DNA of 64,000 bases, from NCBI GenBank assembly GCA_000004695.1, contig CM000153.2, positions 3,840,001-3,904,000 of the forward strand, written 5' to 3'. The position numbers were made by a program, and so were the translations under genes. The notes below the pieces were generated by a model that did not search any database, had not been told where the DNA came from, and saw nothing but the letters and a program-made list of their open reading frames with translations. Shown in pieces: positions 2,246-33,575 of this stretch; positions within the stretch are counted from its first letter, which is position 1, and each line of letters starts with the position of its first letter. The DNA comes from Dictyostelium discoideum (taxonomy: Eukaryota).

Positions 2246-2530
2246 ATTCTACAAATACAATTTCGTTTTGTTGTGTTTCATGTGATGTATCATTATATGG
2301 CGATGTGGTTCAAGGATTTGAAACATTATTACCATGTAACCATACATTATGTAATGAATGTGAAAAAGAATCATTAGCAGTTAAATCTTGTAAATCATGT
2401 TGTTCAGACATTTTATATCATTTTCCAAATAAATATTTAAGACAATTATTAATTTTAAATCAAAAACAATTACAACAACAACAACCTCAACTTAATCAAC
2501 AACATCAACAACAAATTCCACAAGAACAAG

Positions 2531-2592
<62 letters not shown>

Positions 2593-4554
2593 ACAAAAAA
2601 ATCAATTTCAATATATTCAGAAAAACGTCATAGTTCAGAAGCAAATCAAAGTAGTTTTGTAATTTCAAAATCTAGCGATAAAATAGGAAAATCACCATCG
2701 CCTTCATCATCGTCATCATCATTTTCATCATCACCGCAATCATCACAAAGCGCAGAAGGTTCAGAGATTGATAGTAATGAAGAAGAGAATGATATTTGTA
2801 ATCAACATAATAAACAATTGATATCGTATTGTTTAGATTGTAATTGCAATATTTGTCAAGATTGTATAGATCAAATTCATAAAGAGCATAGAGAATTACA
2901 AATTGATAGAAATACGATCAATCAATTTGTTTTAGATGAAAGATCATACTTACAACAACAAAATCAAGTTCATAACCCATATTTAACACCTCAACAACAA
3001 CAACAACAACAAAATTCATCATTAGATCATCAGCTATTTGAATTGGTTAAACAGATAAAGTTATCAAAAGTTTTTAAACAACAATCTATTAATCACTACT
3101 CTGGGGAGTTTAAAAAGGTTCAAGACGAATTCCATGTCTATAAACAATTGATTGAAGAGCGTAGATTATATTTATTGAAATTCATAGAGAATCAATTCAA
3201 ATCCGAGCAATTACAATTGGATGAGCAAATTAAAACCTTGGAAAATCAAGCAGATATCATAAAGAAATGTTTAACAGATATTAAATCCCAAGATAAAAAT
3301 AAATTAAAAATAGTTAGAAACCTCTCAAAAATTAATATTAAATTAACGAAAATGGTAATCAATTCAAATAATGTAAACAATTATCAATATATTCCACCAT
3401 CGATTGCAAATCCAGATTTAGTTTCAATGTCTGATAAATTAAGATCATTGGGTAGAATTAATTATTCATTTAAAGATAATCAACATTTATTGGCTTTATC
3501 AAAGGAGAGATCATTCCAATTCGATATTGATTCAAATCATTTCCTTCCCTACAGTGAGCACCATCATGATAGTAATCCAATGAAAGATACTATACTTGCT
3601 TATAAAGTTATATCCTATCATGATATTTCCAATGGTAATCAAGTTAATAATTGTTTAGTCACAATTTCGGAGAATCAAAAATCTGGACAAATTGAAATCT
3701 CAAAACTTCAAGTGAAATCAAATCAAATTCAATCGAAAATAGTTGTACCATTGAAATCGTTTAAAACAAATTGCTCAGCTTGTTTCACAAGTAGTTTTAA
3801 CTCTGCCGCCACTTCTTCCACCACTGTTGCGAATTATGAAATGTTTTTAATTGGTGGTATCAATCATAAATCTAAAGATCTTTTAAAAGAAATAGATAAA
3901 TATAATTTACAAACCAACAAATACGAACCAATGGTTGCAACATTATCAAAACCTAAATATGGTTGTTTAACTTGTTTCGATGGGTCTCGTTATATTTATA
4001 TCTTTGGTGGTATTTTCAAATCACTACAATTAAGTAGAGCTTTCATTGAAATTGAAAGATTGGATATCACCACCAATAAATGTGAAATCATATCAAAGTT
4101 TCAAGATCCTGATCTTTTAGATTTCAGTAAAAGCCCATTAATTGCATGTCATTTTCATTCAAACTTTATTTATTACTTGACCAATAAATCATTCAAAAGA
4201 TTTAATCTTTCCAAGAATACTTTTGAAAATTTGGATTTCCCAAATCCAACACTATATGGCGATGTTGCCAATATTAATGGTTCAATATCTTTGATGTACG
4301 ATTCTGGTAGATTCATTCTATTATTTAATGATAATATTTTCCTATTCCCACTCTCTCAATTAAAACCTACTGATGTTGCTCCATTGAAATGGTATCCAAA
4401 ATATACTAAAATTAACTCTACTGATTTCACCTCCTCTTCAATGTCTTGCTTAAATTTAATTGGTTCAAAACAATCTTGGCAACAACAATCTCAAAATCCT
4501 TCTTATTTAGTTCAAAACTTACATGGTTTATTAATTTATAATGAAACTCATTAA
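2242..4554 (+). CDS. RING finger / B-box / coiled-coil (TRIM-like RBCC) protein with poly-Q tract and C-terminal kelch-like (GG-containing) repeats
   Basis: ORF 2242..4554, 770 aa, ATG directly after a 50-nt poly(A). C3HC4 RING: 'CVSC-x17-CNHTLCNEC-x9-CKSC'. B-box2: 'CNQH-x7-CLDC-x4-CQDC-x4-HKEH' (C-x2-H-x7-C-x2-C-x4-C-x2-C-x4-H-x2-H). Heptad-rich region 'DEFHVYKQLIEERRLYLLKFIENQFKSEQLQLDEQIKTLENQADIIKK'. C-terminal 'FLIGGINHK...YIYIFGGIF' is repeat-like. (CAA)n encodes Q25. Confidence 0.6.
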
Positions 4555-5014
4555 AAAAAAAAGAAAAAAAAAAAAAACAACAACACCTGTATATAAATTC
4601 TTTTTTTAAATTACCTCTATCATATCATTTATTTATAATAAAATAAAAATTATGTAAATATCATAATTTTTTTTTTACTCAAAATTAAAAAATTATATAA
4701 TGTTAGGGAATTTTTAAAAATTTGTGATCAAAATAATGGAAAATACTAAATGCCATATCTCATTTTTAATATTTTTTATTTATTTATTTTTTTAGTTTTT
4801 TAAAATTTGTAATAAAAACAATTTAAAATAAAAAAATTTAATAATCTTTTTTATTATAATAAATTTAAAATTAAACAAAAATTATTAATTTTAATATTAT
4901 TTTTTTTTTTTATTTTTATTTTTTAAATACACTAAAATAAAAAAAATAAAAAATTGGATATTTTTAAAGTTTCAATTTAAACTACTAAATTTTTAATAAT
5001 TAAATTTTGTTTGA

Positions 5015-5047
<33 letters not shown>

Positions 5048-5152
5048 TATTATTATTTCGTTTTGTTTTATAATCAATTGGTACCAATGAATTGTCTACT
5101 CTCTTTGCAGCCGATACTACTGCATTACATAGTCTTAACCAGTGAAGTTTAT

Positions 5153-5398
5153 TTACAGTTGGTAATAAATCTCTAATTGAATAATATTCATCTGTACCAA
5201 AGTTTGACTTTTTTGACAATCCAAAAGGACCAAGAAAGCAAAAAGTAAAGCATATTCTACAACATATCTCGCTTTTGTGGGATAATCTGGTAACATGTCC
5301 ATATCTTTTCCGGTTCTACTAATCATCTCTCTTAATCTATTTGCATCTATACCTAAAAAATAACTATTTACTAATGTTGATAAATTTGTTTCATCCAT
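5153..5398 (-). CDS. hypothetical small protein (81-aa ORF; 3' end uncertain, possible unrecognised intron)
   Basis: ORF 5153..5398 (-) 'MDETNLSTLVNSYFLGIDANRLREMISRTGKDMDMLPDYPTKARYVVEY...'. The first ~55 codons use A/T-ending codons typical of Dictyostelium coding DNA. The last ~25 codons (CTT/TTG/GTC-rich, T-tract then 'tacag') look like intron. No recognisable family from sequence alone. Confidence 0.3.
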   Translation of the reverse strand: MDETNLSTLVNSYFLGIDANRLREMISRTGKDMDMLPDYPTKARYVVEYALLFAFLVLLDCQKSQTLVQMNIIQLEIYYQL

Positions 5399-5827
5399 TT
5401 TTTTCTATTACTTTCTTTTTTATTGTTTTTTTCTTTGAGACAGCTGTGAAGTAAGTAAGCCAATATAAAATGTTTGTTTTTTTCTTGTGTTTTTTTTTTT
5501 TTTTAATTAATTATATTATATTATTAAAAATAAAAAAAAATAAAAAAAAAAGAAAAAAAAAAATTATTTCCAATCCTCTTTCCTATTTCATTTTTTTGAA
5601 TAATTCCCATTTTTGGAACTTTATTTTTAATAATATAAAAATACACCCCGCCGAAAATTTTATAAAATATTTTCAATATTTTTTTTTAAGTTTAAAAAAT
5701 TTTCCCCCTTTTTTTTTCAATTTTTTATTTTTTTTTATTTTTTTTTTTTTTTTATTTTATTTATTTGTTTATAAATTTTTTTTTGTGTGTATTTATTTCT
5801 TTATTGAATTAAAAATAATACCACACA

Positions 5828-21548: not shown

Positions 21549-24500
21549 CTACAATCCAAATCTTTTGATTTTTTTGGTATTTGATTTGTTACCACTACTG
21601 TTATTATTATTACTATTATTGGTACTGGGTGTAGAATTTGTGATTAATGAAGATTTTTTATTATCAAAATTAATATTATTATTTATATTAGTTGTAGTAT
21701 TAGTAGTAGTTGTAGTGGTGGTAGAAGTTTGATTTACTTTTATAGTACCTTTTTCTTTAGCATTAATAATATTACTATTATCAATATTATTGTTATTATT
21801 ATTATTATTGATATTATCATTAATTTTATCTTTAATTGGATCTAATTTTCTTTTTTTATCTTTTAATGATTTTTTGATTGAGAAAAACATTGGACCCATT
21901 TCAGCTAACCAATTTGGGTCAACAGCGGTTACAATTTGCATATATTCTTTTGAGGTCATAACTAATTCATGGTAGACAATATAGTCGGGAGCATAACCAA
22001 GACCATAGAGTGCACTTGTTGGATGAAGGAAACATGGCATACCATTTCTCATGTTTACATATTCACCAATACCTTTAATCTTTGCAGAATGATGAAAGTA
22101 AGAAGAAGTGATAGCCTTTCTAATGATATCCCAATTTGAACCACATGATTCAACCTTCATATCATGTTGTACCATAATATCCAAGAGTTGACCACGAACC
22201 TCTCTAACTTTTCTCATTGCTTTAATGTGAATATAATGTTCAGCACACCATTGTGAGCTATAGTTGTTGATTTTCCATTGTTGATAAACATGTAACAATG
22301 TTAGATGATCGGATTCTGGAACAAAGAATTTCTCTCTTGAGGCATCACTCTCTTCTTCAGCACCTTTAGGTCTATAGAAAACTGATGGCATTGATAACAT
22401 ACTAACGATTGTAACTATATCTTGACCACACCCCAATTGCTCTGCAACTATAACCATTTTCGATAGTGGTGGATCCAATGGAAATTCCGACATTCTCTTA
22501 CCCAATGGTGTGATTTGACCTTGATCATCCAATGCTCCCAATACCCAAAGTTGATACATTGAATTCAAAATATTATCTTGTGGTGGTGGATCCATAAAAT
22601 CAAAATCCAATAAATTCTTTACACCCATTGATTTAAGATTCAATACTACATTACCAAGATTTGTACGTTGAATTTCTGGTATATTATTATCCATCAATTC
22701 ATATTTAAAAGCGGATTCAGTGTATAATCTATAACATCTACCAGGACCAGTACGACCAGCTCTACCTGAACGTTGATTTGCATTTGCCTTACTGATGGGT
22801 GTGACTTGTAATGAATCCATACCAACTCTTGGATTGTAAACTTTTAATTTACAATAACCAGTATCGATAACATAGAGAATACCATCGACAGTCAATGAAG
22901 TCTCTGCAATATTTGTGGCGATAATACATTTCCTAGAGCCATTATCTGCTTTTTCAAAGATTTTAGCTTGCATATCTGATGGTAATTGAGAGTAAATTGG
23001 TAACAATGTTAATGGTGGTGCTTGTGGTCCCAATTGTTTAATTCTTTCTTCAACGGTTGCACAAGTGGTTTCAATATCTTCTTGACCAGTCATAAACACC
23101 AGTATATCACCAACACCCTGAGTCACATGTATTGATAGAATTTGTTTAACTGCTGAATCAACATAATCTTCACATGGGGTTTTACTCCAAAGTACATCGA
23201 CTGGAAAAGTTCTACCTGGTATAGTGAATACGGGTACATCACCGAAAAACATTGAAAACTTTTTACTATCCATTGTTGCAGATGTTACAATTAATTTCAT
23301 ATCATATCTTCTTGACATTACCTTTTTTAAAATACCAAATAACACATCAGTATTTAATGAACGTTCATGTGCTTCATCCATAATGATTGCAGAGTATTTA
23401 TCCAAGTTTGGGTCATTAAATGACTCTCTTAATAAAATACCATCAGTCATATATTTAATTGCAGTTTCATTGGATGTACAATCTTCAAAACGAATTGAAT
23501 AACCAACTTCATTACCTAAAGTAACAGACATCTCTTCACTTACACGCTTTGCCACACTAACTGCAGCAACCCTTCTTGGTTGGGTACATCCAATTTTTCC
23601 AAATTTTGAATAGCCATCTTCATATAGATATTGAACCAATTGAGTGGTTTTACCTGAACCAGTCTCACCAACTATAATGATTACATTATTCTCTCTAATG
23701 ATCTTCATTAAATCATTTCTACAACCAAATATTGGTAAAAATTCACGTTGTTCTTTTATTGTTTTGGTTTTTGAGAATTCACTTGACCCTTCAGTTGGTT
23801 TATTTGGTGTTAAATGGGATGCAAATTGTGATTGTGCTTTATAATTTAAAACTTCACCGGTTTCTTTATCAATTTGCTCACCACCACCACCGCCATTGGC
23901 TAATTGCTGTTCTTTTTCTTTTTCATCCTCACTCTTTATACCCATAATTTTACCAATTGCCGTACCACCCAACTCCCAAACTTTCTTTTGACTTTTTATT
24001 CGGTCACGTTTCTCTCTAAACTCTTTCATTAATGCACTACCTTTTCTTGAAATAACAGCCATATCAGAAGTTGGATCTTTAACGGTTTGAACGGCACGTT
24101 GCTGTTTGGTTAACACTTGATGACCATCTAAAAAAGGTGGAATTGTATTATGAACTAAAAGATTAACTCTATTCTCATCATCTTCTTGTAAATGATCCAA
24201 ATCGATTTCATTTTGTAATATTACACCACTTTGCATTAATCTATTGGTTTCCCATCTTGAATTATCCTCATTCATTTGATTTTGTTTTGCTGTTACTTTT
24301 TTCTTTTGTGATCTTGTGAATTCTTCTTCCATCTTTTTAAATTTCTTTTCATCACCTAAAAATACACTATCAGCATTACTACTATCAAAAACACCACCTT
24401 CACCTTCATCTGCATCATAATATCCTCTATCAAATTCTTCTTCTTCATATTCTTCTTCTTTTAAATGTGGTTTTTTATTATTATTATTATTATTTTGATT

Positions 24501-25399
24501 ATTTTGATTATTTCTACCTGACCATGAATTATAATTATGAGATGGTGTTCTTTGTGGAGTGTCATATGGTCTGTTATTATTATTTCTATTATTTTGTTGT
24601 TGTTGTTTTTGTTGTTGATTATATCTACTTGGTGTTTGATCATTATCTCTATTTCTTTGAGGTGTATCAAAAGGTCTATTATCACCACCACCTCTATCGA
24701 TATCACCTTTTCTATAATCATTTCTATTTATACTTCTATCGTCCCTTTTATATGATGGATCTCTATTTGAATCTCTTGATGGTGTTTGATCATTATATCT
24801 TCTTTGTGGAGTTTCAGAGTTTTTATTAAAATCCTCACCTCTCCTATATGATGAACTTCTGTCATCTCTTTTATAATCTTCTCTATTGCTACTTCTATCA
24901 TCCCTTCTATAATCATCCCTATTACTACTACTACTACTACTTTTATCATCCCTTCTATAATCATCTCTCCTATTACTACTACCACTTCTATCATCTCTTC
25001 TATAATCATCTCTATTACTACTTCTATCATCTCTTCTATAATCATCTCTATTACTGCTCCTATCATCTCGTCTATCATATGATGATGAAGAAGAAGAAGA
25101 AGAATTTCTTTCATAATCATTTGAACGAATTGGTGTTGATTTTATCTGTCTATAATGTTTTTCAGGTTTTTTGAATGAAGATTCATCATTATCATTATAA
25201 TTATCATTATTACTATCGTCATCATTATTAAATCTATCTAATAATTCTTTTCTTCTTTTCTCTTCTTGTTCTTCTCTTTTTTCTTTTGCTAAAATATCTA
25301 AACCTAAAACTGATTTTTTCACTTGTGGTATTTTAAATTGTTCCTGTAATAAAAGTTATTGTTTCTTTTGTTAATATTAATAAACTCTAAATATTAAAG

Positions 25400-25431
<32 letters not shown>

Positions 25432-25824
25432 ATTTTTATTTTTATTTTTACCTACATCATTATTTGTTGAATTTTTTCTTGTAATTAAACCGCCTTTCAT
25501 AGTTTCTGCTAATGGTTGATTTGATTGAGTTGTTGTTGACGTATCTTTTGTAAAAGATAATGAAGTTCTTTCACCACTACTACTATTATTACTTTCATTT
25601 TTATTTGTTGATTTTTTAACTTTATCATAAATATCATCAATTATATAATCATCAGGTTTAATACCATATTGAGCACATGATTTTATAAATTGTTCTTTAT
25701 TATTGGATCTAATAACTTCATTAAAAATTCTTAATGCAAGTGTTTGATTTGTTGTTGGTAATTTTAATGATTTTGATACTTTTTCTCCAATATCTTGTAT
25801 TAAATCCCTATCAACATTATCCAT
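21549..25824 (-). CDS. Pre-mRNA-splicing factor ATP-dependent RNA helicase Prp16 / DHX38 orthologue (DEAH-box); join(21549..25343,25456..25824)
   Basis: Main ORF 21549..25322 carries DEAH-box motifs '[10 protein letters not shown]', 'DEAHERS', 'TSAT', 'TNIAETSLT', 'QRSGRAGR'. DHX38-specific stretches: '[42 protein letters not shown]', '[21 protein letters not shown]', and the C-terminal '...KRFGL' (human '...ARFGL'). N-terminal RD/RS-like 12-aa repeats [12 protein letters not shown]. Exon 1 = ORF 25387..25824 up to ...KNSTNND (donor GTAGGT at 25455). 112-nt AT-rich intron. Acceptor 'ttattacag' (AG 25345..25344), in frame to '[25 protein letters not shown]' (human '[20 protein letters not shown]'); 'GGLITRK' in exon 1 parallels DHX38 'GGLICKSK'. 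Confidence 0.85.
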
Positions 25825-26186
25825 TTTTAATATATATACATATAAATATTATTTATATTATTTGTATTTGTTTTTTCAGTTGATAATTTTTCAAAAATTG
25901 AAAAAACAAGTAAAATATCAGATTTTTGAAGGGTCTTTTTTTTTTTTTTTTTTTTTTTTAATTAACGAAATTGTTACAGATGTGGAATATTTTTTTTTTA
26001 ATTTTTTGGACTTTTAAAGAATTTTCACTTTTTTTTTTAATTTTAATTTTTTTTTTTTTTTTTTTTTTCTTCATTCCCATTTTTTATTTTTACTTTTTTT
26101 TTTATTTTTTAAATTAAATAACAAACAAAAATAAATTTATATTTTTTTAATGTGTATTTGTATAATAAAATAAATATTATAAAATT
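25825..26186. promoter_or_regulatory. 362-bp shared divergent (bidirectional) promoter region between the Prp16/DHX38 (-) and Prp2/DHX16 (+) start codons
   Basis: ATG of the minus-strand gene at 25824..25822 and of the plus-strand gene at 26187. The interval is AT-rich with T20-25 homopolymers and no ORF. Confidence 0.5.
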
Positions 26187-29100
26187 ATGAGTAGTAATAA
26201 TGAATCAATAAAGAATTGGGTATCAGATAAGATTTTCGATATCTTGGGATATCGTGAATCTACAATGGTTGATTATATAATTGCATTATCGAAAAAAGCA
26301 AAAGATGTAAATTCATTTATATCAACATTAACAGAACAAGATTTTCCAATAAATTCCAATACAAAATCATTTGCTCAAGAGTTATTAAATAAATCACAAC
26401 AAAAAATTCAAAATATAACTTCTTCATCTTCTTCATCTTCTTCAACTTCATTATCATCATCATCATCATCAAAAGATAAAGAAAAAGAAAAAATTGAATT
26501 TTTAAAAAAGAATAAATCATATAAATTAGTTATTGATCATGATGATGATATTGTAAATAGTAGTGGAAGTAGCGATAGTGATAGCGATAGTGAAAGAAAA
26601 AGAAAAAAAAAAGAAAAAAAAAAAGAAAAAAAAGATAAAAAAGATAAAAAAGATAAAAAATCATCAACAAGAAAGAAATCTGATAATAATTGGGATGATG
26701 AAATTGAACCTGAACCAATTAAACCCAATGAAAAAGAAGATGAAAATAATAATAATGAAAATAATGATAATAATAATGACAATAATAATTTACAAAAAAG
26801 GCAACCATATAAATCAATAATTGAAGAAGAAAATAATAATGATAATAATAATAATAATGGAGAGGAGGATGAATATGAAAGAGAACAAAGAGAAGTTAAA
26901 GAATTAAGTGATAGAATAAAGAAAAGAGATGAAAAATCAACTAAAAAGAAAATAGTTGATGATTCAGAAACTAAAGAATCAATTGAAAGAAAGAATAGAT
27001 TAGAACAAAATGAACAATTAGAAACTGAAAGAACTAAATCTCGTAGAAAATATTTAGTTGGTGAAGAACAAAAACGATTAATCCTCTTAAAGAGAGAGAT
27101 TGAAGAAGAGTATGAATTATTTAAAGATCAAAAATTAACAGAACAAGAGATTAAAGATTTTGAAAAAAAGAAAAAATTATATGAATTAGCAAGTCAACGT
27201 ATAAATGAATCACAACAATCTGATGACTATTATCAATTACCTTCAGAAATTAAAGATAAAGATTCATTATTAAAATCATCATATATTAATGATAATAAAA
27301 ATAAAAAAGGTAATGACTCGTCATCATCGTCATCATACAATCCAGAACAAAAAGAATGGGAACAAAATAGAATGAAATCAGCAATTTCAGAGAATAGAGG
27401 ATTATCAACAGCCAATATTGGTGGTGGTAATGAAGAGTATGAATATGTATTTGAGGATCAAATTGAATTTATTAAAGAGGAAGTATTAAAGCAAGGACAG
27501 AAGGGTGATGGTGTAATGATATTGAAACCTGGTGATGATGGGTCAGCACAAGCAAAGATGACAATTCAAGAGGTTAGAAAATCATTACCAGTTTATCCAT
27601 ATCGTGAACAATTGATTGATGCAGTCAGGGAATATCAAGTTTTGATTATAGTTGGAGAGACAGGATCTGGTAAAACCACACAAATTCCACAATATTTACA
27701 TGAAGCTGGTTTTTCAAAAACTGGTAAAATCGGATGTACCCAACCAAGAAGAGTTGCTGCCATGAGTGTTGCAGCTAGAGTAGCAGAAGAGGTGGGTTGC
27801 AAATTAGGTAATGAAGTTGGTTATTCAATTCGTTTCGAAGATTGTACATCACAGAAAACAGTTTTGCAATATATGACCGATGGTATGTTGGTGAGGGAAT
27901 TCTTAACCGCACCTGATTTGGCAAGTTACTCTGTATTGATCATTGATGAAGCCCATGAGCGTACACTTCATACTGATATTCTATTTGGACTGTTGAAAGA
28001 TATCACAAGATTTAGACCCGATCTCAAGTTGTTGATCTCATCTGCAACAATGGATGCTGAAAGATTCTCTGATTATTTCGATGGTGCGCCAACTTTTAAT
28101 ATTCCAGGAAGAAAATATGAAGTTACCACTCATTACACTCAAGCACCCGAAGCCGATTATTTAGATGCAGCGGTTGTAACAGTACTTCAAATTCATATCA
28201 CTGAACCTCTAGGTGACATTTTAGTGTTTTTAACGGGTCAAGAAGAAGTTGATCAAGCCGCTGAGATGTTGCAAACTAGAACCAGAGGATTGGGTACGAA
28301 AATAAAGGAATTAATTATCACTAGAATCTATTCAACACTTCCAACCGATTTACAAGCTAAAATCTTTGAACCAACACCACCAAATGCAAGAAAAGTAGTA
28401 TTGGCAACCAATATCGCCGAGACTTCTTTGACAATTGATGGTATTATCTATGTGATTGATCCAGGATTTTGTAAACAGAAAATGTTTAATCCACGTACTG
28501 GTATGGAATCATTGGTGATTACACCAGTAAGTAGAGCATCAGCCAATCAAAGAAAAGGAAGAGCTGGTCGTGTTGCACCTGGTAAATGTTTTAGATTATT
28601 CACTGCTTGGGCATTTGATAATGAATTAGAGGAGAATACAATTCCAGAGATACAGCGAACAAATTTAGGTAATGTTGTATTGCTGTTGAAATCAATGGGT
28701 ATCAATGATTTAATGAATTTCGATTTCATGGATCCGCCACCTGCTCAAACTTTAATCGCTGCATTGGAACAACTTTATGCATTGGGTGCTTTGAATGATC
28801 GTGGTCAGTTGACAAAATTGGGTAGAAAAATGGCTGAATTTCCAGTGGATCCACAATTATCAAAAATGATCATCGCAAGTGAAAAATATAAATGTAGTGA
28901 AGAGATTCTTACAATTTGTGCAATGTTAAGTGTTGGTAATACCATTTTCTACAGACCAAAGGATAAAGCATTTGCTGCTGATGCCGCTAGGAAATTGTTT
29001 TTCCATCCACAAGGTGACCATTTAACATTGATGAATGTCTTCAATCAATGGCGTGAATCAGGTTATGCCGTTCAATGGTGTTTTGAAAATTTCATTCAAC

Positions 29101-29498
29101 ATCGTTCAATGAAACGTGCTCAAGATGTTAGGGATCAATTGGAGCTATTATTAGAACGTGTTGAAATTCCATTGGTTTCAAATGTTGACGATACAGATTC
29201 CATTAGAAAATGTATAGCCTCTGGTTTCTTTTATAACTCTGCAAAATTAGAGAAATCAGGTTTATTTAGAACTACAAAACATAATCAAAGTGTTCAAATT
29301 CATCCCTCTTCTTGTTTATTTCAATCACCTCCGAAATGGGTTGTCTATCATGAATTGGTTTTAACTACTAAAGAATTTATGAGACAAATTGTTGAAATTC
29401 AATCTTCTTGGCTTCATGAAATTGCTCCTCATATTTATAAAGAAAAAGATGTAAATGATAATCAAAAATTACCAAAAAATATTGGTAAAAAACAAATT

Positions 29499-29507
<9 letters not shown>
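26187..29507 (+). CDS. Pre-mRNA-splicing factor ATP-dependent RNA helicase Prp2 / DHX16 orthologue (DEAH-box), single exon
   Basis: ORF 26187..29507, 1106 aa. N-terminus '[38 protein letters not shown]' parallels human DHX16 '[36 protein letters not shown]'. Helicase core '[24 protein letters not shown]...[11 protein letters not shown]...LVFLTGQEE...[25 protein letters not shown]...[17 protein letters not shown]'. C-terminal '[31 protein letters not shown]...[23 protein letters not shown]' matches DHX16, not DHX8/15/38. Confidence 0.85.
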
Positions 29508-31070: not shown

Positions 31071-33575
31071 TAACAATTAATATTAATTTATTAATTTATT
31101 TAATTTATTTATTTTATTATTATTATTATAATATAGGATATGGTACCAGGTGTTGAATTAATTCAACAAGCAGTTAATGGAATGGCAGAAGCAGCAGAGG
31201 AAACAGTATCATTAATTGATGAAGAGTTTATTGGACAATTAGAGAGTACATCAAAACAATTAAAGAATTCAGCAGGTCAATTATATGTTCATGCAGTTCG
31301 TGCAAGAGAAGATCCATGGAATAGAGTACCACAAAAGGATGCAATTAAAGCAGCCAAACAAATTCTTCAAAATGTTGTATTATTGGTATTGATTGAAGAG
31401 CAATCAAACATTAAGGTATTGGTAAACATTGCAAAGAAAGCAGCTGAAGGTGTAAGAAGAATCGATGAGATTGAAAATATTAAGCAATTGGATGTTATGA
31501 TTGGTGACGTAAATCAATTACAAAATGAATTGGTTAAAAGATCACAACGTCGTTCAGAGGGTAGCCACAATCCAGAGCTACGTTCAAAACTTGAAGATAT
31601 CGCCACAATGGTAAACATACTCTCTGAACAACATCAAGCAAGTGCTCGTGATGTTTGTAGAAATCCAAGAGAGGAAACCCTAAGATCAAAACGTTCAGAA
31701 CTTTCAAGTAAATTATTATCAGCAATCGATGATTTAATCTACACTATTAAATTGATTTTCGAGAATAATACAAAATTCGTTGATCTCGCTTTCAAATGGA
31801 AACCAGTTCGTACAATGGCTGAAGATGAAGTTACTCGTGCCTCCGCTGTTCTTATTGATAATCTTCGTACACTTCCAAAATCAATTGAGGCTGGTAATGG
31901 TCCAGCAGCAGCTAGAGAGATTGTCAATGCTGCAAACTTACAAATTTCAAATGCAATCATCGTTGCAAATCGTTGTCAAGATCCAGTTAAAAAGAAAATG
32001 TTATTGAAACAAATTGAAGAATTAAAGAAATTGACACCAATGCTTATCTCTGCTATGAAACCAGTTTTGGAGAATCCAAATGATCAAGAAGCTCAAAAAC
32101 ATTTAGAATCTGTAATTTATTCAACCCAAAAAGCATCTGAAGCATTGGCAACCGCAGTTGTTTCTTCACCAGCAGAAATTGTTGCAGCATCTGGTGTTTC
32201 ATTAGCAAGAGATTTAGATTCTTTAGAGGAAGCAATTGCATCAGGTGATAAGAAACGTGCTCAAGTTATTCTCTCTCATATTCCAAGTGCAATTGATAAA
32301 CATATTGAATTGGCAAATGCTCTCTTAGAGACTATTACAGATCCAGGTCAACGTCATCAAATTAAACAATCCATTGAAAGATTACAAACACTTAAACCAA
32401 GAATCATTGAAAATGCAAATAGAGCAATCGCCAATCCAAATGACCATGAAGCTCGTAAAAATCTTTCATCAGATATTAAAGAAGCCAAAAAAGCAATTGG
32501 TCAAATCAGTCAACCATATGAAGTCGTTTCAGCTCTCAATACTAAAATTCATAATGATCTTGATTCACTCATTAAATGTATCGATGAAGGTGGTCCAGAT
32601 ATGCAAGTTAAAGGTGTTCAATATGCTAAAGATATAGCAAACTCTATTAAAAAACAAATTGAAGCAGCCGAGGCATACGCTCAAACTATCACTGATCCAG
32701 ATCGTAAGAAACAAGTACTAGATTCAATTGAACAACTTAAAAAACTTACTCCACAACTTTTAGAAGCAATTAGAGCATGTTTAGCAAATCCTGATGATAA
32801 AGAAGCTCGTAAGAGACTCGATGATGTCGTCAGAAGAGTTAAAGAAGCAAGTAGTAATCTTAGTCAAGTCATTCAACCAACTGCTGATGAACTTAAAGAA
32901 GAAAAGAGAAAGAGAAATGAAGAGATTGCAAGAATTGAAGCAGAGGAAAAAGCAAAAGCTCGTGCCTTATTAAAAGCTGCTGAATTGGCAAGAATTGAAG
33001 CAGAGGAAGAAAAGAAACGTTTGGCTATAATTGAAGAAGAAAAGAAACGTTTAGCTGCAGAGGAAGAGGAAAGAAAACGTGCTCCAAAACTCGTCGTTCC
33101 AGAAGGTCCAGTTAATAAAGCAGTTTTCGGTGCTGCCGCTGATGTCGCTCAAGCTTTAGAATCAAAAGTTCGTGATGGTACACCATTGGGTATACTCGTT
33201 CAATTATCCGACGAAATCGCTCAACAAATGGCTTTAATCGCAAGTTTCGCAATGAATGGTGATGTTAAAGGTATGATTACTGCTGCTCGTAAAATCGCAG
33301 ATACCATCAAACAAGTTCAAACTCAAGCTAAACATATCGCTGACAATTGCACTGATCCACGTTTAAAACAAAATGTTTTAACCTATTGCGATTGTGGTGG
33401 TAATTTCAGTACCCAACTTAAAATCCTTTGCGCCGTTAAATCAAATGATTTTAATGATCCAACCGCTGAAGAACAATTAGTTACTTGTGCTAAAGGTTTA
33501 TCAGGTGCTGTAATTAATCTTGTAAAATCTTCTGAAGCTGCATCAATTAAACAAAGAAAAGTACCACAACAATAA
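30921..33575 (+). CDS. Vinculin / alpha-catenin family protein (~842 aa); join(30921..31010,31137..33575)
   Basis: Exon 1 'MDEVLEMIADAVSSLVVAITDSEEKNTLFG' + GTATGT donor (31011). Acceptor 'atatag' (31136) joins ORF 31140..33575. 'MLLKQIEELKKLTPMLISAMKPVLENPNDQEAQ' parallels vinculin '[25 protein letters not shown]'. C-terminal tail '...LVKSSEAASIKQRKV' parallels vinculin tail '...EAEAASIKIR'. E/K/A-rich helical linker before the tail. Cannot distinguish the Dictyostelium vinculin-like from the alpha-catenin-like paralogue by eye. Confidence 0.75.

What the first reader, a model, noticed from the sequence alone, without database searches (positions are those of the whole stretch)
21549..29507. 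Two paralogous spliceosomal DEAH-box helicases (Prp16/DHX38 and Prp2/DHX16) sit head-to-head on a 362-bp shared promoter
The step-2 helicase (Prp16 orthologue, minus strand) and the step-1 activation helicase (Prp2 orthologue, plus strand) are immediate divergent neighbours, with start codons 362 bp apart. They are paralogues in the DHX8/15/16/38 family. Adjacency could reflect an old tandem duplication retained as a co-regulated pair. Few eukaryotes keep these two genes linked.
Basis: partly seen in the sequence, partly recalled or inferred. Interest (0 to 1): 0.5.

Follow-up and report, generated by a model that had tools for sequence, protein, structure and literature searches.

The report
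Ancient head-to-head spliceosomal helicase gene pair
In the social amoeba Dictyostelium, the genes for two related splicing helicases (Prp16/DHX38 and Prp2/DHX16) really do sit back-to-back 362 bp apart, and this neighbourhood is old within amoebae but is an ordinary conserved divergent gene pair, with no sign of a fresh duplication.

Summary
The window is D. discoideum AX4. The minus-strand gene (exon 1 25824-25456, 112-nt intron, exon 2 25343-21549; 1387 aa) is the Prp16/DHX38 orthologue. The plus-strand gene (26187-29507; 1106 aa) is the Prp2/DHX16 orthologue. Their ATGs flank a 362-bp, 88% A+T spacer.

The same head-to-head pair, with spacers of 151-383 bp, occurs in D. firmibasis, Cavenderia fasciculata and Acytostelium subglobosum. 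These cover both dictyostelid orders, so the pair is ancestral to Dictyostelia. It also occurs on one contig of an unidentified amoebozoan that looks variosean.

The pair is broken in Polysphondylium violaceum, Tieghemostelium lacteum and Heterostelium album, and absent from two variosean-like contigs. It is also absent from about 29 informative environmental eukaryote contigs, and the genes lie on different contigs in five named non-amoebozoan species.

The neighbours are no more alike than paralogues from different species, so there is no recent duplication or gene conversion. Each scores closer to DHX8 than to the other.

Best reading: an old amoebozoan divergent pair, kept mainly because the promoters are tightly packed. 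Co-regulation is untested and evidently dispensable. The "retained tandem duplication" idea is not supported. Interest is modest.

The parts
21549..25343 (-). Prp16/DHX38 orthologue, exon 2 (aa 124-1387, stop included). Contains an RD/RS-like low-complexity region, the Prp16-specific PPFLDG block, the DEAH helicase core (DEAD, Helicase_C, HA2, OB_NTP_bind) and a C-terminal RFGL.
25344..25455 (-). Intron of the Prp16 gene: 112 nt, GTAGGT...ACAG, containing a 30-base homopolymer run at 25400-25429.
   Evidence: The spliced product equals the deposited 1387-aa protein.
25456..25824 (-). Prp16 exon 1 (aa 1-123). Residues 1-78 form a confidently predicted four-helix, PWI-like domain, followed by a disordered linker.
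25825..26186 (.). Divergent intergenic spacer between the two ATGs: 362 bp, 88.4% A+T. It must hold both core promoters and both 5' UTRs.
25961..25999 (.). The only clearly conserved non-homopolymer block in the D. discoideum / D. firmibasis spacer alignment (AATTAACGAAATTGTTACAGATGTGGAATA + T10). A candidate shared cis-element, untested. It is not enriched elsewhere in the window.
25936..25959 (.). T24 tract in the spacer.
26047..26068 (.). T22 tract in the spacer, about 120 bp upstream of the DHX16 ATG.
26187..29507 (+). Prp2/DHX16 orthologue (dhx16, Q54MH3), a single exon of 1106 aa plus stop. N-terminal PWI domain (aa 7-68), charged linker, DEAH helicase core.
31140..33575 (+). ctnnA (alpha-catenin/vinculin family, DDB_G0285939). 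This is the next gene downstream of dhx16 and part of the same small conserved synteny block in several dictyostelids.

Best explanation
Two single-copy, anciently diverged spliceosomal DEAH-box helicase genes are transcribed divergently from a 362-bp, 88% A+T spacer. One is the Prp16/DHX38 orthologue, which remodels the spliceosome after branching. The other is the Prp2/DHX16 orthologue, which activates it before branching. The arrangement is inherited. It was already present in the last common ancestor of Dictyostelia and probably earlier in Amoebozoa (phylum Evosea). It persists mainly because the spacer is so short (151-383 bp in every species that keeps the pair) that the two promoters are interleaved, so few rearrangement breakpoints leave both genes working. 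A modest benefit from coordinated expression of two enzymes that each act once per splicing cycle may add to this. It is not a recent duplication, shows no gene conversion, and is not obligatory: single inversions with one breakpoint in the spacer account for the two dictyostelid lineages where the genes are now 9-14 kb apart. Shown here: gene identities, structure, spacing, conservation pattern, and lack of concerted evolution. Inferred: promoter overlap, the reason for retention, and co-regulation.
For: Identity and orthology. Intact head-to-head pair, all checked by tblastn: D. firmibasis, Cavenderia fasciculata and Acytostelium subglobosum (adjacent locus tags _110910/_110920). ATG-to-ATG spacers are 383, 151 and 212 bp. 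These species span both dictyostelid orders. Consecutive gene numbers in Synstelium polycarpum and one unnamed EukProt species also imply adjacency. Outside Dictyostelia, Logan contig L008 carries DHX16 at 2478..5573 (+) and Prp16 exons on the minus strand from 2281, a 196-bp spacer, with the Prp16-only motifs LGLD and PPFLDG. Its nearest named relatives are varioseans (Planoprotostelium, Phalansterium, Soliformovum, Protostelium, Cavostelium). The pair outlasts its surroundings: within +/-10 kb of DHX16 in C. fasciculata and A. subglobosum, only Prp16 (both species) and ctnnA (C. fasciculata) have a counterpart anywhere in the 64-kb window. Even D. discoideum versus D. purpureum retains blocks averaging only 2.8 genes (PMC3188802). 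General rule: conserved eukaryotic gene pairs are enriched for divergent orientation, short spacers and related function (PMC2871058). No recent duplication or conversion: paralogue DNA identity is 68.7% within D. discoideum versus 68.8-69.4% across D. discoideum/D. firmibasis, and protein identity is 50-52% whether or not the genes are linked. Breaks: P. violaceum has DHX16-ctnnA-x-x-Prp16 all on one strand, 8.9 kb apart. T. lacteum has Prp16(+), six genes, then DHX16(+), 14.4 kb apart.
Against: Co-expression and promoter sharing are not demonstrated. No transcription start sites are known here. No motif is robustly shared among the deep species' spacers. C. fasciculata RNA-seq counts (dhx16 6,4,5,3,4,3,0; the Prp16 gene model 6,24,14,75,13,7,0) show no co-variation, though they are too shallow to decide and that gene model is probably fused with a neighbour. 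The pair was lost in 3 of the 7 named dictyostelid genomes whose DNA was examined and in two variosean-like contigs, so any constraint is weak. The pre-dictyostelid age rests on one 9.8-kb contig from an unidentified organism, placed only by best hits and a neighbour-joining tree. The comparison with background synteny decay uses only this one neighbourhood.
Confidence: 0.6

Rival explanations
1. Selected co-regulation. The spacer is a true bidirectional promoter, and the pair is maintained by selection for stoichiometric co-expression of the step-1-activation and step-2 helicases.
For: Functionally related partners in divergent orientation with very short spacers (151-383 bp) in every species that keeps the pair. 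The pair is retained while all other neighbours changed. There is a conserved central block in the D. discoideum / D. firmibasis spacer. Conserved divergent pairs tend to be functionally related (PMC2871058).
Against: Three dictyostelid lineages and two variosean-like contigs live without the arrangement. No shared motif is found in deep comparisons. The only expression data available show no co-variation. Animals, fungi and plants manage with unlinked genes.
Confidence: 0.25
2. The adjacency is a surviving relic of the ancient duplication that created Prp2 and Prp16, kept linked since before the last eukaryotic common ancestor.
For: The two are paralogues sharing the whole DEAH core. Their N-terminal domains may also be related: both are predicted four-helix bundles with the same helix layout and the same nearest solved structures, with a weak profile-profile match (P about 1e-3). 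The linkage is old, being found in Dictyostelia and in a variosean-like contig.
Against: Both have clear 1:1 orthologues in animals, fungi and plants, so the duplication predates the last eukaryotic common ancestor. Each scores closer to DHX8/Prp22 than to its neighbour. Linkage is absent from about 29 informative environmental Prp16 contigs. The two genes are on different contigs in Spizellomyces, Geranomyces, Ptychodera, Saccoglossus and Chlorokybus. They are unlinked in human, yeast and Arabidopsis (my knowledge). The head-to-head orientation is not what unequal crossing-over produces. Retention would require very many independent losses.
Confidence: 0.07
3. Coincidence or convergence. The pair arose independently in Dictyostelia and in the L008 organism, or L008 is an assembly artefact, and the dictyostelid retention is neutral luck.
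For: The closest relatives of L008 for which flanks exist (L010, L012) lack the pair. Only one non-dictyostelid example was found. Small syntenic blocks of 2-3 genes are the normal residue of dictyostelid genome evolution.
Against: The chance of the same two genes becoming head-to-head neighbours with a spacer under 400 bp twice is about 1e-4 per lineage. The pair is retained in both dictyostelid orders while every other adjacency in the neighbourhood decayed.
Confidence: 0.1

Closest known systems
Evolutionarily conserved head-to-head (bidirectional-promoter) gene pairs, e.g. histone H2A/H2B, RAD16/RAD7, ribosomal L13/S16 (Davila Lopez et al. 2010, PMC2871058)
   Same: Divergent orientation. 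A very short spacer, well under 1 kb. Partners work in the same pathway. The arrangement is conserved over long evolutionary distances.
   Different: The partners here are ancient paralogues of one helicase family. Co-expression and promoter sharing are unproven. The pair is confined to Amoebozoa and has been broken several times.
Human DHX38 (PRP16) and DHX16; yeast PRP16 and PRP2
   Same: The encoded proteins are their orthologues: DEAH core, HA2 and OB domains, Prp16 motifs PPFLDG and C-terminal RFGL, and the DHX16 N-terminal PWI domain.
   Different: In human and yeast the two genes are on different chromosomes (my knowledge, not tested here). Dictyostelid Prp16 carries an extra N-terminal four-helix domain that human PRP16 lacks.
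Tandem paralogue clusters retained from duplication (globin, Hox, histone clusters)
   Same: Paralogous genes lie next to each other.
   Different: Orientation is inverted rather than tandem. The paralogues diverged before the last eukaryotic common ancestor and are only about 50% identical. There is no concerted evolution and no linkage in other supergroups.

Membership tests
Prp16/DHX38 orthologue group (minus-strand gene) | DEAH/RHA helicase architecture: RecA1, RecA2, HA2 winged-helix and ratchet, OB fold | tested here: met
   Pfam DEAD, Helicase_C, HA2_N, HA2_C and OB_NTP_bind all score above their cut-offs.
Prp16/DHX38 orthologue group (minus-strand gene) | Closer to PRP16 than to DHX8, DHX16 or DHX15 | tested here: met
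   1222 bits to human PRP16 over residues 3-1159, versus 848 (DHX8), 769 (DHX16) and 644 (DHX15). Every listed hit that carries a family-specific name is PRP16/DHX38.
Prp16/DHX38 orthologue group (minus-strand gene) | Prp16-specific sequence signatures outside the core | tested here: met
   PPFLDG occurs in 117 of 121 Prp16 hits and 0 of 184 DHX16 hits. N-terminal LGLD occurs in 93 of 121 versus 0 of 184. C-terminal RFGL occurs in 69 of 121. All three are present in the window protein.
Prp16/DHX38 orthologue group (minus-strand gene) | Acts at the C to C* transition (second step) of splicing | not testable with these tools
   Inferred from orthology only.
Prp2/DHX16 orthologue group (plus-strand gene) | DEAH/RHA helicase architecture | tested here: met
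   Same five Pfam domains.
Prp2/DHX16 orthologue group (plus-strand gene) | Closer to DHX16 than to DHX8, DHX38 or DHX15 | tested here: met
   1119 bits to human DHX16 over residues 226-1102, versus 867 (DHX8), 722 (PRP16) and 729 (DHX15). Named best hits are DHX16/DEAH1. In the helicase core alone, the Chaetomium Prp2 (845) and Prp22 (863) scores are close, so the regions flanking the core carry much of the signal.
Prp2/DHX16 orthologue group (plus-strand gene) | N-terminal PWI-type domain typical of DHX16 | tested here: met
   Pfam PWI scores 22.0 bits, exactly at its 22.0 cut-off. A profile of DHX16 N-termini hits human DHX16 residues 7-72 (4e-12) and the SRm160 PWI domain (2e-4). The predicted structure is a four-helix bundle that matches PWI domains.
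Prp2/DHX16 orthologue group (plus-strand gene) | Activates the Bact spliceosome together with a G-patch cofactor (Spp2/GPKOW) | not tested
   No cofactor gene was sought, and function is inferred from orthology.
Bidirectional-promoter (head-to-head) gene pair | Divergent orientation with 5' ends less than 1 kb apart | tested here: met
   The ATGs are separated by 362 bp. The spacers in four other genomes are 151-383 bp.
Bidirectional-promoter (head-to-head) gene pair | Correlated expression of the two genes | tested here: inconclusive
   Only C. fasciculata read counts were reachable. They are very low and show no visible co-variation.
Bidirectional-promoter (head-to-head) gene pair | Shared cis-regulatory element(s) driving both directions | not testable with these tools
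   There is a candidate block at 25961-25999, conserved only with D. firmibasis. No motif is shared across deep species beyond chance.
Bidirectional-promoter (head-to-head) gene pair | Arrangement conserved across species | tested here: met
   Intact in both dictyostelid orders and in one variosean-like contig, but broken in three dictyostelids.
Paralogue cluster retained from a tandem duplication | Neighbours are each other's closest paralogues | tested here: not met
   By score, DHX8/Prp22 is closer to each than they are to one another. This is only a proxy; no rooted phylogeny was built.
Paralogue cluster retained from a tandem duplication | Linkage present in other major eukaryotic lineages, as retention from before the last eukaryotic common ancestor predicts | tested here: not met
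   None of 80 environmental Prp16 loci has a second DEAH helicase in its flanks, and about 29 of them have at least 5 kb upstream. The two genes are on different contigs in five named non-amoebozoans.
Paralogue cluster retained from a tandem duplication | Elevated within-genome similarity (concerted evolution) | tested here: not met
   68.7% DNA identity within the genome versus 68.8-69.4% across species. Protein identity is 50-52% throughout.

The most novel reading that the evidence does not exclude
The Prp16|DHX16 head-to-head pair is a surviving trace, over a billion years old, of the inverted whole-gene duplication that produced two of the spliceosome's DEAH helicases. Under this reading it is still visible only in Amoebozoa, and both copies also keep a homologous N-terminal PWI-like four-helix domain that most other lineages lost from Prp16.
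Probability: 0.07. Interest if true: 0.6.

Novelty: new member of a known kind. Interest (0 to 1): 0.3.

Why it matters
If the pair truly shares a promoter, it offers a small natural system for asking whether the spliceosome's sequentially acting helicases need coordinated dosage. Nature has already supplied the controls, in related species where single inversions split the pair. It is also a rare case of microsynteny that appears to pre-date Dictyostelia, which is useful as a marker for amoebozoan genome evolution. It does not change how either helicase is understood, and the category of conserved divergent pairs of related genes is well known.

Tried and rejected
(1) Recent duplication or gene conversion: rejected. 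Paralogue identity is the same within and between genomes. The long 'inverted repeats' are simply the conserved helicase cores.

(2) Exon 1 of Prp16 as an inverted copy of the DHX16 5' exon, acquired in dictyostelids: rejected. BLASTP finds nothing. The domain also occurs in Prp16 of Rhizophagus, Rhizomucor, Mortierella, Lunasporangiospora and Mastigella. Only an ancient shared fold remains possible.

(3) A motif shared by the spacers of deep species: nothing beyond chance. The D. discoideum / D. firmibasis block is not enriched in the window. The sigma-70-type promoter scan is irrelevant to a eukaryote and found fewer hits than shuffles.

(4) L008 as an arthropod sequence, suggested by a high-scoring Ixodes hit: rejected. 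Ixodes groups with animals in the tree, and its gene model contains an internal duplication.

It was replaced by a scan using a Prp16-specific block.

(6) Identifying SRR10663366, SRR28521185 or GCA_025450795 from the literature: no hits.

(7) D. discoideum expression data: gene identifiers were not found in any held text or supplement.

(8) Heidel et al. 2011, for genome-wide dictyostelid synteny figures, is not held.

(9) The afdb50 fold library was unavailable.

(10) An Acipenser 'contaminant' hit turned out to be an ordinary intron-rich fish gene.

(11) No literature on this gene pair or on Dictyostelium bidirectional promoters was found.
Full report
**Observation.** The window is Dictyostelium discoideum AX4. 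The plus-strand ORF 26187..29507 (1106 aa) is identical to Q54MH3/XP_638017, named DHX16. The minus-strand gene is split. Exon 1 is 25824..25456, followed by a 112-nt GT..AG intron (25455..25344) and exon 2 at 25343..21549. The spliced 1387-aa product is identical to Q54MH4/XP_638016. The two ATGs bracket 25825..26186, which is 362 bp at 88.4% A+T with T24 and T22 tracts. "Shared promoter" is an inference.

**Identity.** Both proteins have the full DEAH/RHA architecture: DEAD, Helicase_C, HA2_N, HA2_C and OB_NTP_bind.
- Against all solved structures, the minus-strand protein is closest to human PRP16/DHX38 (1222 bits, residues 3-1159), ahead of DHX8 (848), DHX16 (769) and DHX15 (644).
- The plus-strand protein is closest to human DHX16 (1119 bits), ahead of DHX8 (867), DHX15 (729) and PRP16 (722).
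- Among the 120 best hits listed from 5.8 billion proteins for each query, every hit that carries a family-specific name is PRP16/DHX38, or DHX16/DEAH1, respectively.
- The minus-strand protein carries Prp16-only signatures. PPFLDG occurs in 117 of 121 Prp16 hits and 0 of 184 DHX16 hits. The N-terminal LGLD motif and the C-terminal RFGL are also present.

**Not a young duplicate.** The long inverted repeats between the two genes are the conserved helicase cores. DNA identity between the paralogues is 68.7% within D. discoideum, and 68.8-69.4% when one partner is taken from D. firmibasis. Protein identity is 50-52% in every combination, whether or not the genes are linked in that species. There is no concerted evolution. 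By score, each protein is closer to DHX8/Prp22 than to its neighbour.

**Synteny within Dictyostelia.** I fetched +/-10 kb around the DHX16 orthologue in six other species and checked each with tblastn.

Species that keep the head-to-head pair:
- D. firmibasis has a 383-bp spacer.
- Cavenderia fasciculata has a 151-bp spacer.
- Acytostelium subglobosum has a 212-bp spacer, and its two genes carry adjacent locus tags.
- Consecutive EukProt gene numbers imply adjacency in Synstelium polycarpum and one unnamed species.

These species cover both dictyostelid orders, so the arrangement goes back to the crown ancestor.

Species in which the pair is broken:
- In Polysphondylium violaceum the order is DHX16-ctnnA-x-x-Prp16, all on one strand and 8.9 kb apart.
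- In Tieghemostelium lacteum the order is Prp16(+), six genes, then DHX16(+), 14.4 kb apart on one contig.
- In Heterostelium album the two genes are on different scaffolds.

The first two layouts are what a single inversion with one breakpoint inside the spacer would give. That is my inference.

Around the pair, everything else has turned over. Within +/-10 kb of DHX16 in C. fasciculata and A. subglobosum, only Prp16 (both species) and ctnnA (C. fasciculata) match anything in the 64-kb window. For scale, even D. discoideum versus D. purpureum keeps perfectly conserved blocks of only 2.8 genes on average (PMC3188802).

**Outside Dictyostelia.** A 9.8-kb Logan contig (L008, run SRR10663366, 38% G+C) carries DHX16 at 2478..5573 (+). 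Exons of a Prp16 orthologue, with the LGLD and PPFLDG motifs, lie on the minus strand starting at 2281. That gives a 196-bp spacer. The nearest named relatives of its DHX16 and Prp16 are Planoprotostelium, Phalansterium, Soliformovum, Protostelium nocturnum and Cavostelium. These are varioseans, at least for the two whose taxonomy I looked up. L008 sits next to them, and outside Dictyostelia, in a neighbour-joining tree. Two related contigs lack a Prp16 neighbour: L010 with 3.7 kb of upstream sequence, and L012 with 8 kb.

A scan of JGI metagenomes with a Prp16-specific block returned 80 loci. None has a second DEAH helicase in its flanks, and about 29 have at least 5 kb upstream. The two genes lie on different contigs in Spizellomyces, Geranomyces, Ptychodera, Saccoglossus and Chlorokybus. 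The pair therefore looks amoebozoan. It is probably older than Dictyostelia, it is leaky, and it is absent elsewhere.

**Spacer and expression.**
- The D. discoideum / D. firmibasis spacer alignment shows one conserved non-homopolymer block, at 25961-25999.
- No k-mer is shared among the deep species beyond chance, and that block is not enriched in the window.
- The only expression data I could reach are C. fasciculata developmental read counts (PMC4931340, Supplementary Data 6). The counts are 6,4,5,3,4,3,0 for dhx16 and 6,24,14,75,13,7,0 for the Prp16 gene model. They are too shallow to decide and show no co-variation.

**Interpretation.** The best-supported reading is an old divergent gene pair whose survival owes most to tight packing. 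Both promoters must fit in 150-400 bp, so few breakpoints are harmless. This matches the general finding that conserved eukaryotic pairs are divergent, closely spaced and functionally related (PMC2871058). A benefit from coordinated expression of two helicases that act in succession on every intron is plausible but unproven. It is clearly dispensable, given three dictyostelid losses. The "retained tandem duplication" reading would require linkage to have been kept since before the last eukaryotic common ancestor in amoebae only, between paralogues that are not each other's nearest relatives, and in inverted orientation. I give it about 7%.

**Side finding.** Prp16 exon 1 encodes a confidently predicted four-helix domain (pLDDT about 90; helices at 4-19, 27-39, 43-51 and 60-78). 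The helix layout nearly coincides with the PWI domain at the N-terminus of DHX16 (helices at 3-20, 25-37, 41-50 and 57-76). Both models retrieve the same solved neighbours, namely GIPC GH2 domains and chain 8c6j_V. PWI domains also appear, those of Prp3, SRRM1 and RBM25. Profile-profile comparison of the two domains is end-to-end but weak (P about 1e-3, probability 10-15%). The domain is not a dictyostelid novelty. Its HMM finds Prp16 of Rhizophagus, Rhizomucor, Mortierella, Lunasporangiospora and Mastigella. It is absent from L008, Vannella, Cavostelium and, by my recollection of the sequence, human PRP16. The DHX16 profile also touches the N-termini of yeast Prp22 and human DHX8, weakly (E 0.18-0.75). 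A PWI-like N-terminal domain may therefore be ancestral to this helicase clade.

**Novelty and limits.** Both genes are annotated in public records. I found no paper on their adjacency or on Dictyostelium bidirectional promoters. The finding is a new example of a known kind.

Limits of this work:
- The pre-dictyostelid age rests on one unidentified contig.
- No rooted paralogue phylogeny was built.
- There is no genome-wide synteny baseline.
- There are no start-site data and no usable expression data.

Noticed in passing
window 25824..25456 (-), aa 1-78 of Prp16; compare window 26187..26426 (+): Prp16 exon 1 encodes a confident four-helix, PWI-like domain. Its helix layout and nearest solved structures match the DHX16 N-terminal PWI domain encoded just across the spacer. 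The domain also occurs in Prp16 of Mucoromycota and Glomeromycota fungi and of Mastigella, but not in the L008, Vannella or Cavostelium orthologues or, by my recollection, human PRP16. Remote homology to the DHX16 domain is suggestive only (hhalign P about 1e-3).
   Followed up: partly
window 31140..33575 (+); L001 14758-17408, L002 14191-16764, L003 18418-21208, L006 20099-22581: ctnnA (alpha-catenin, DDB_G0285939) lies downstream of dhx16. It stays within 1-7 kb of dhx16 in D. firmibasis, P. violaceum, C. fasciculata and T. lacteum, so the conserved block is Prp16-dhx16-ctnnA. In C. fasciculata a tRNA-Pro gene (DFA_00765) and DFA_00764 lie between dhx16 and ctnnA.
   Followed up: partly
L002 (P. 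violaceum) and L006/L007 (T. lacteum, LODT01000039.1 162001-183125): Both disrupted arrangements have the two helicase genes on the same strand, separated by 3 or 6 genes. This is the layout expected from one inversion with a breakpoint inside the former shared spacer.
   Followed up: partly
window about 24700..25050 (-), Prp16 aa about 200-300: There are tandem peptide repeats of the form [12 protein letters not shown], about six copies, in the N-terminal low-complexity region. They probably correspond to the RS/RD-rich region of animal PRP16.
   Followed up: no
L003 3727..9849 (-); L005 5544..9695 (-); protein P0124: Public gene models of the Prp16 orthologues look imperfect. C. fasciculata DFA_00767 (1597 aa) extends about 2.3 kb beyond the Prp16 homology and may be fused to a neighbouring gene. 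The A. subglobosum model starts inside the N-terminal domain, whereas the likely true ATG is at L005 9788. The T. lacteum and one unnamed EukProt model lack the N-terminal domain.
   Followed up: partly
L002 18413..21907 (+): In P. violaceum the gene directly upstream of the relocated Prp16 encodes an RSE1/CPSF_A beta-propeller protein (SF3B3, DDB1 or CPSF160 type). It may be another splicing factor next to Prp16.
   Followed up: no
protein P0242 (Ixodes scapularis DHX16 model): The deposited tick protein model contains an internal repeat of the GETGSGKT region. This inflated its score as a hit to L008's DHX16. In the tree it groups with animals.
   Followed up: yes
window 25400..25429: A 30-base homopolymer run (A on the plus strand, T in the transcript) sits inside the 112-nt Prp16 intron.
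   Followed up: no
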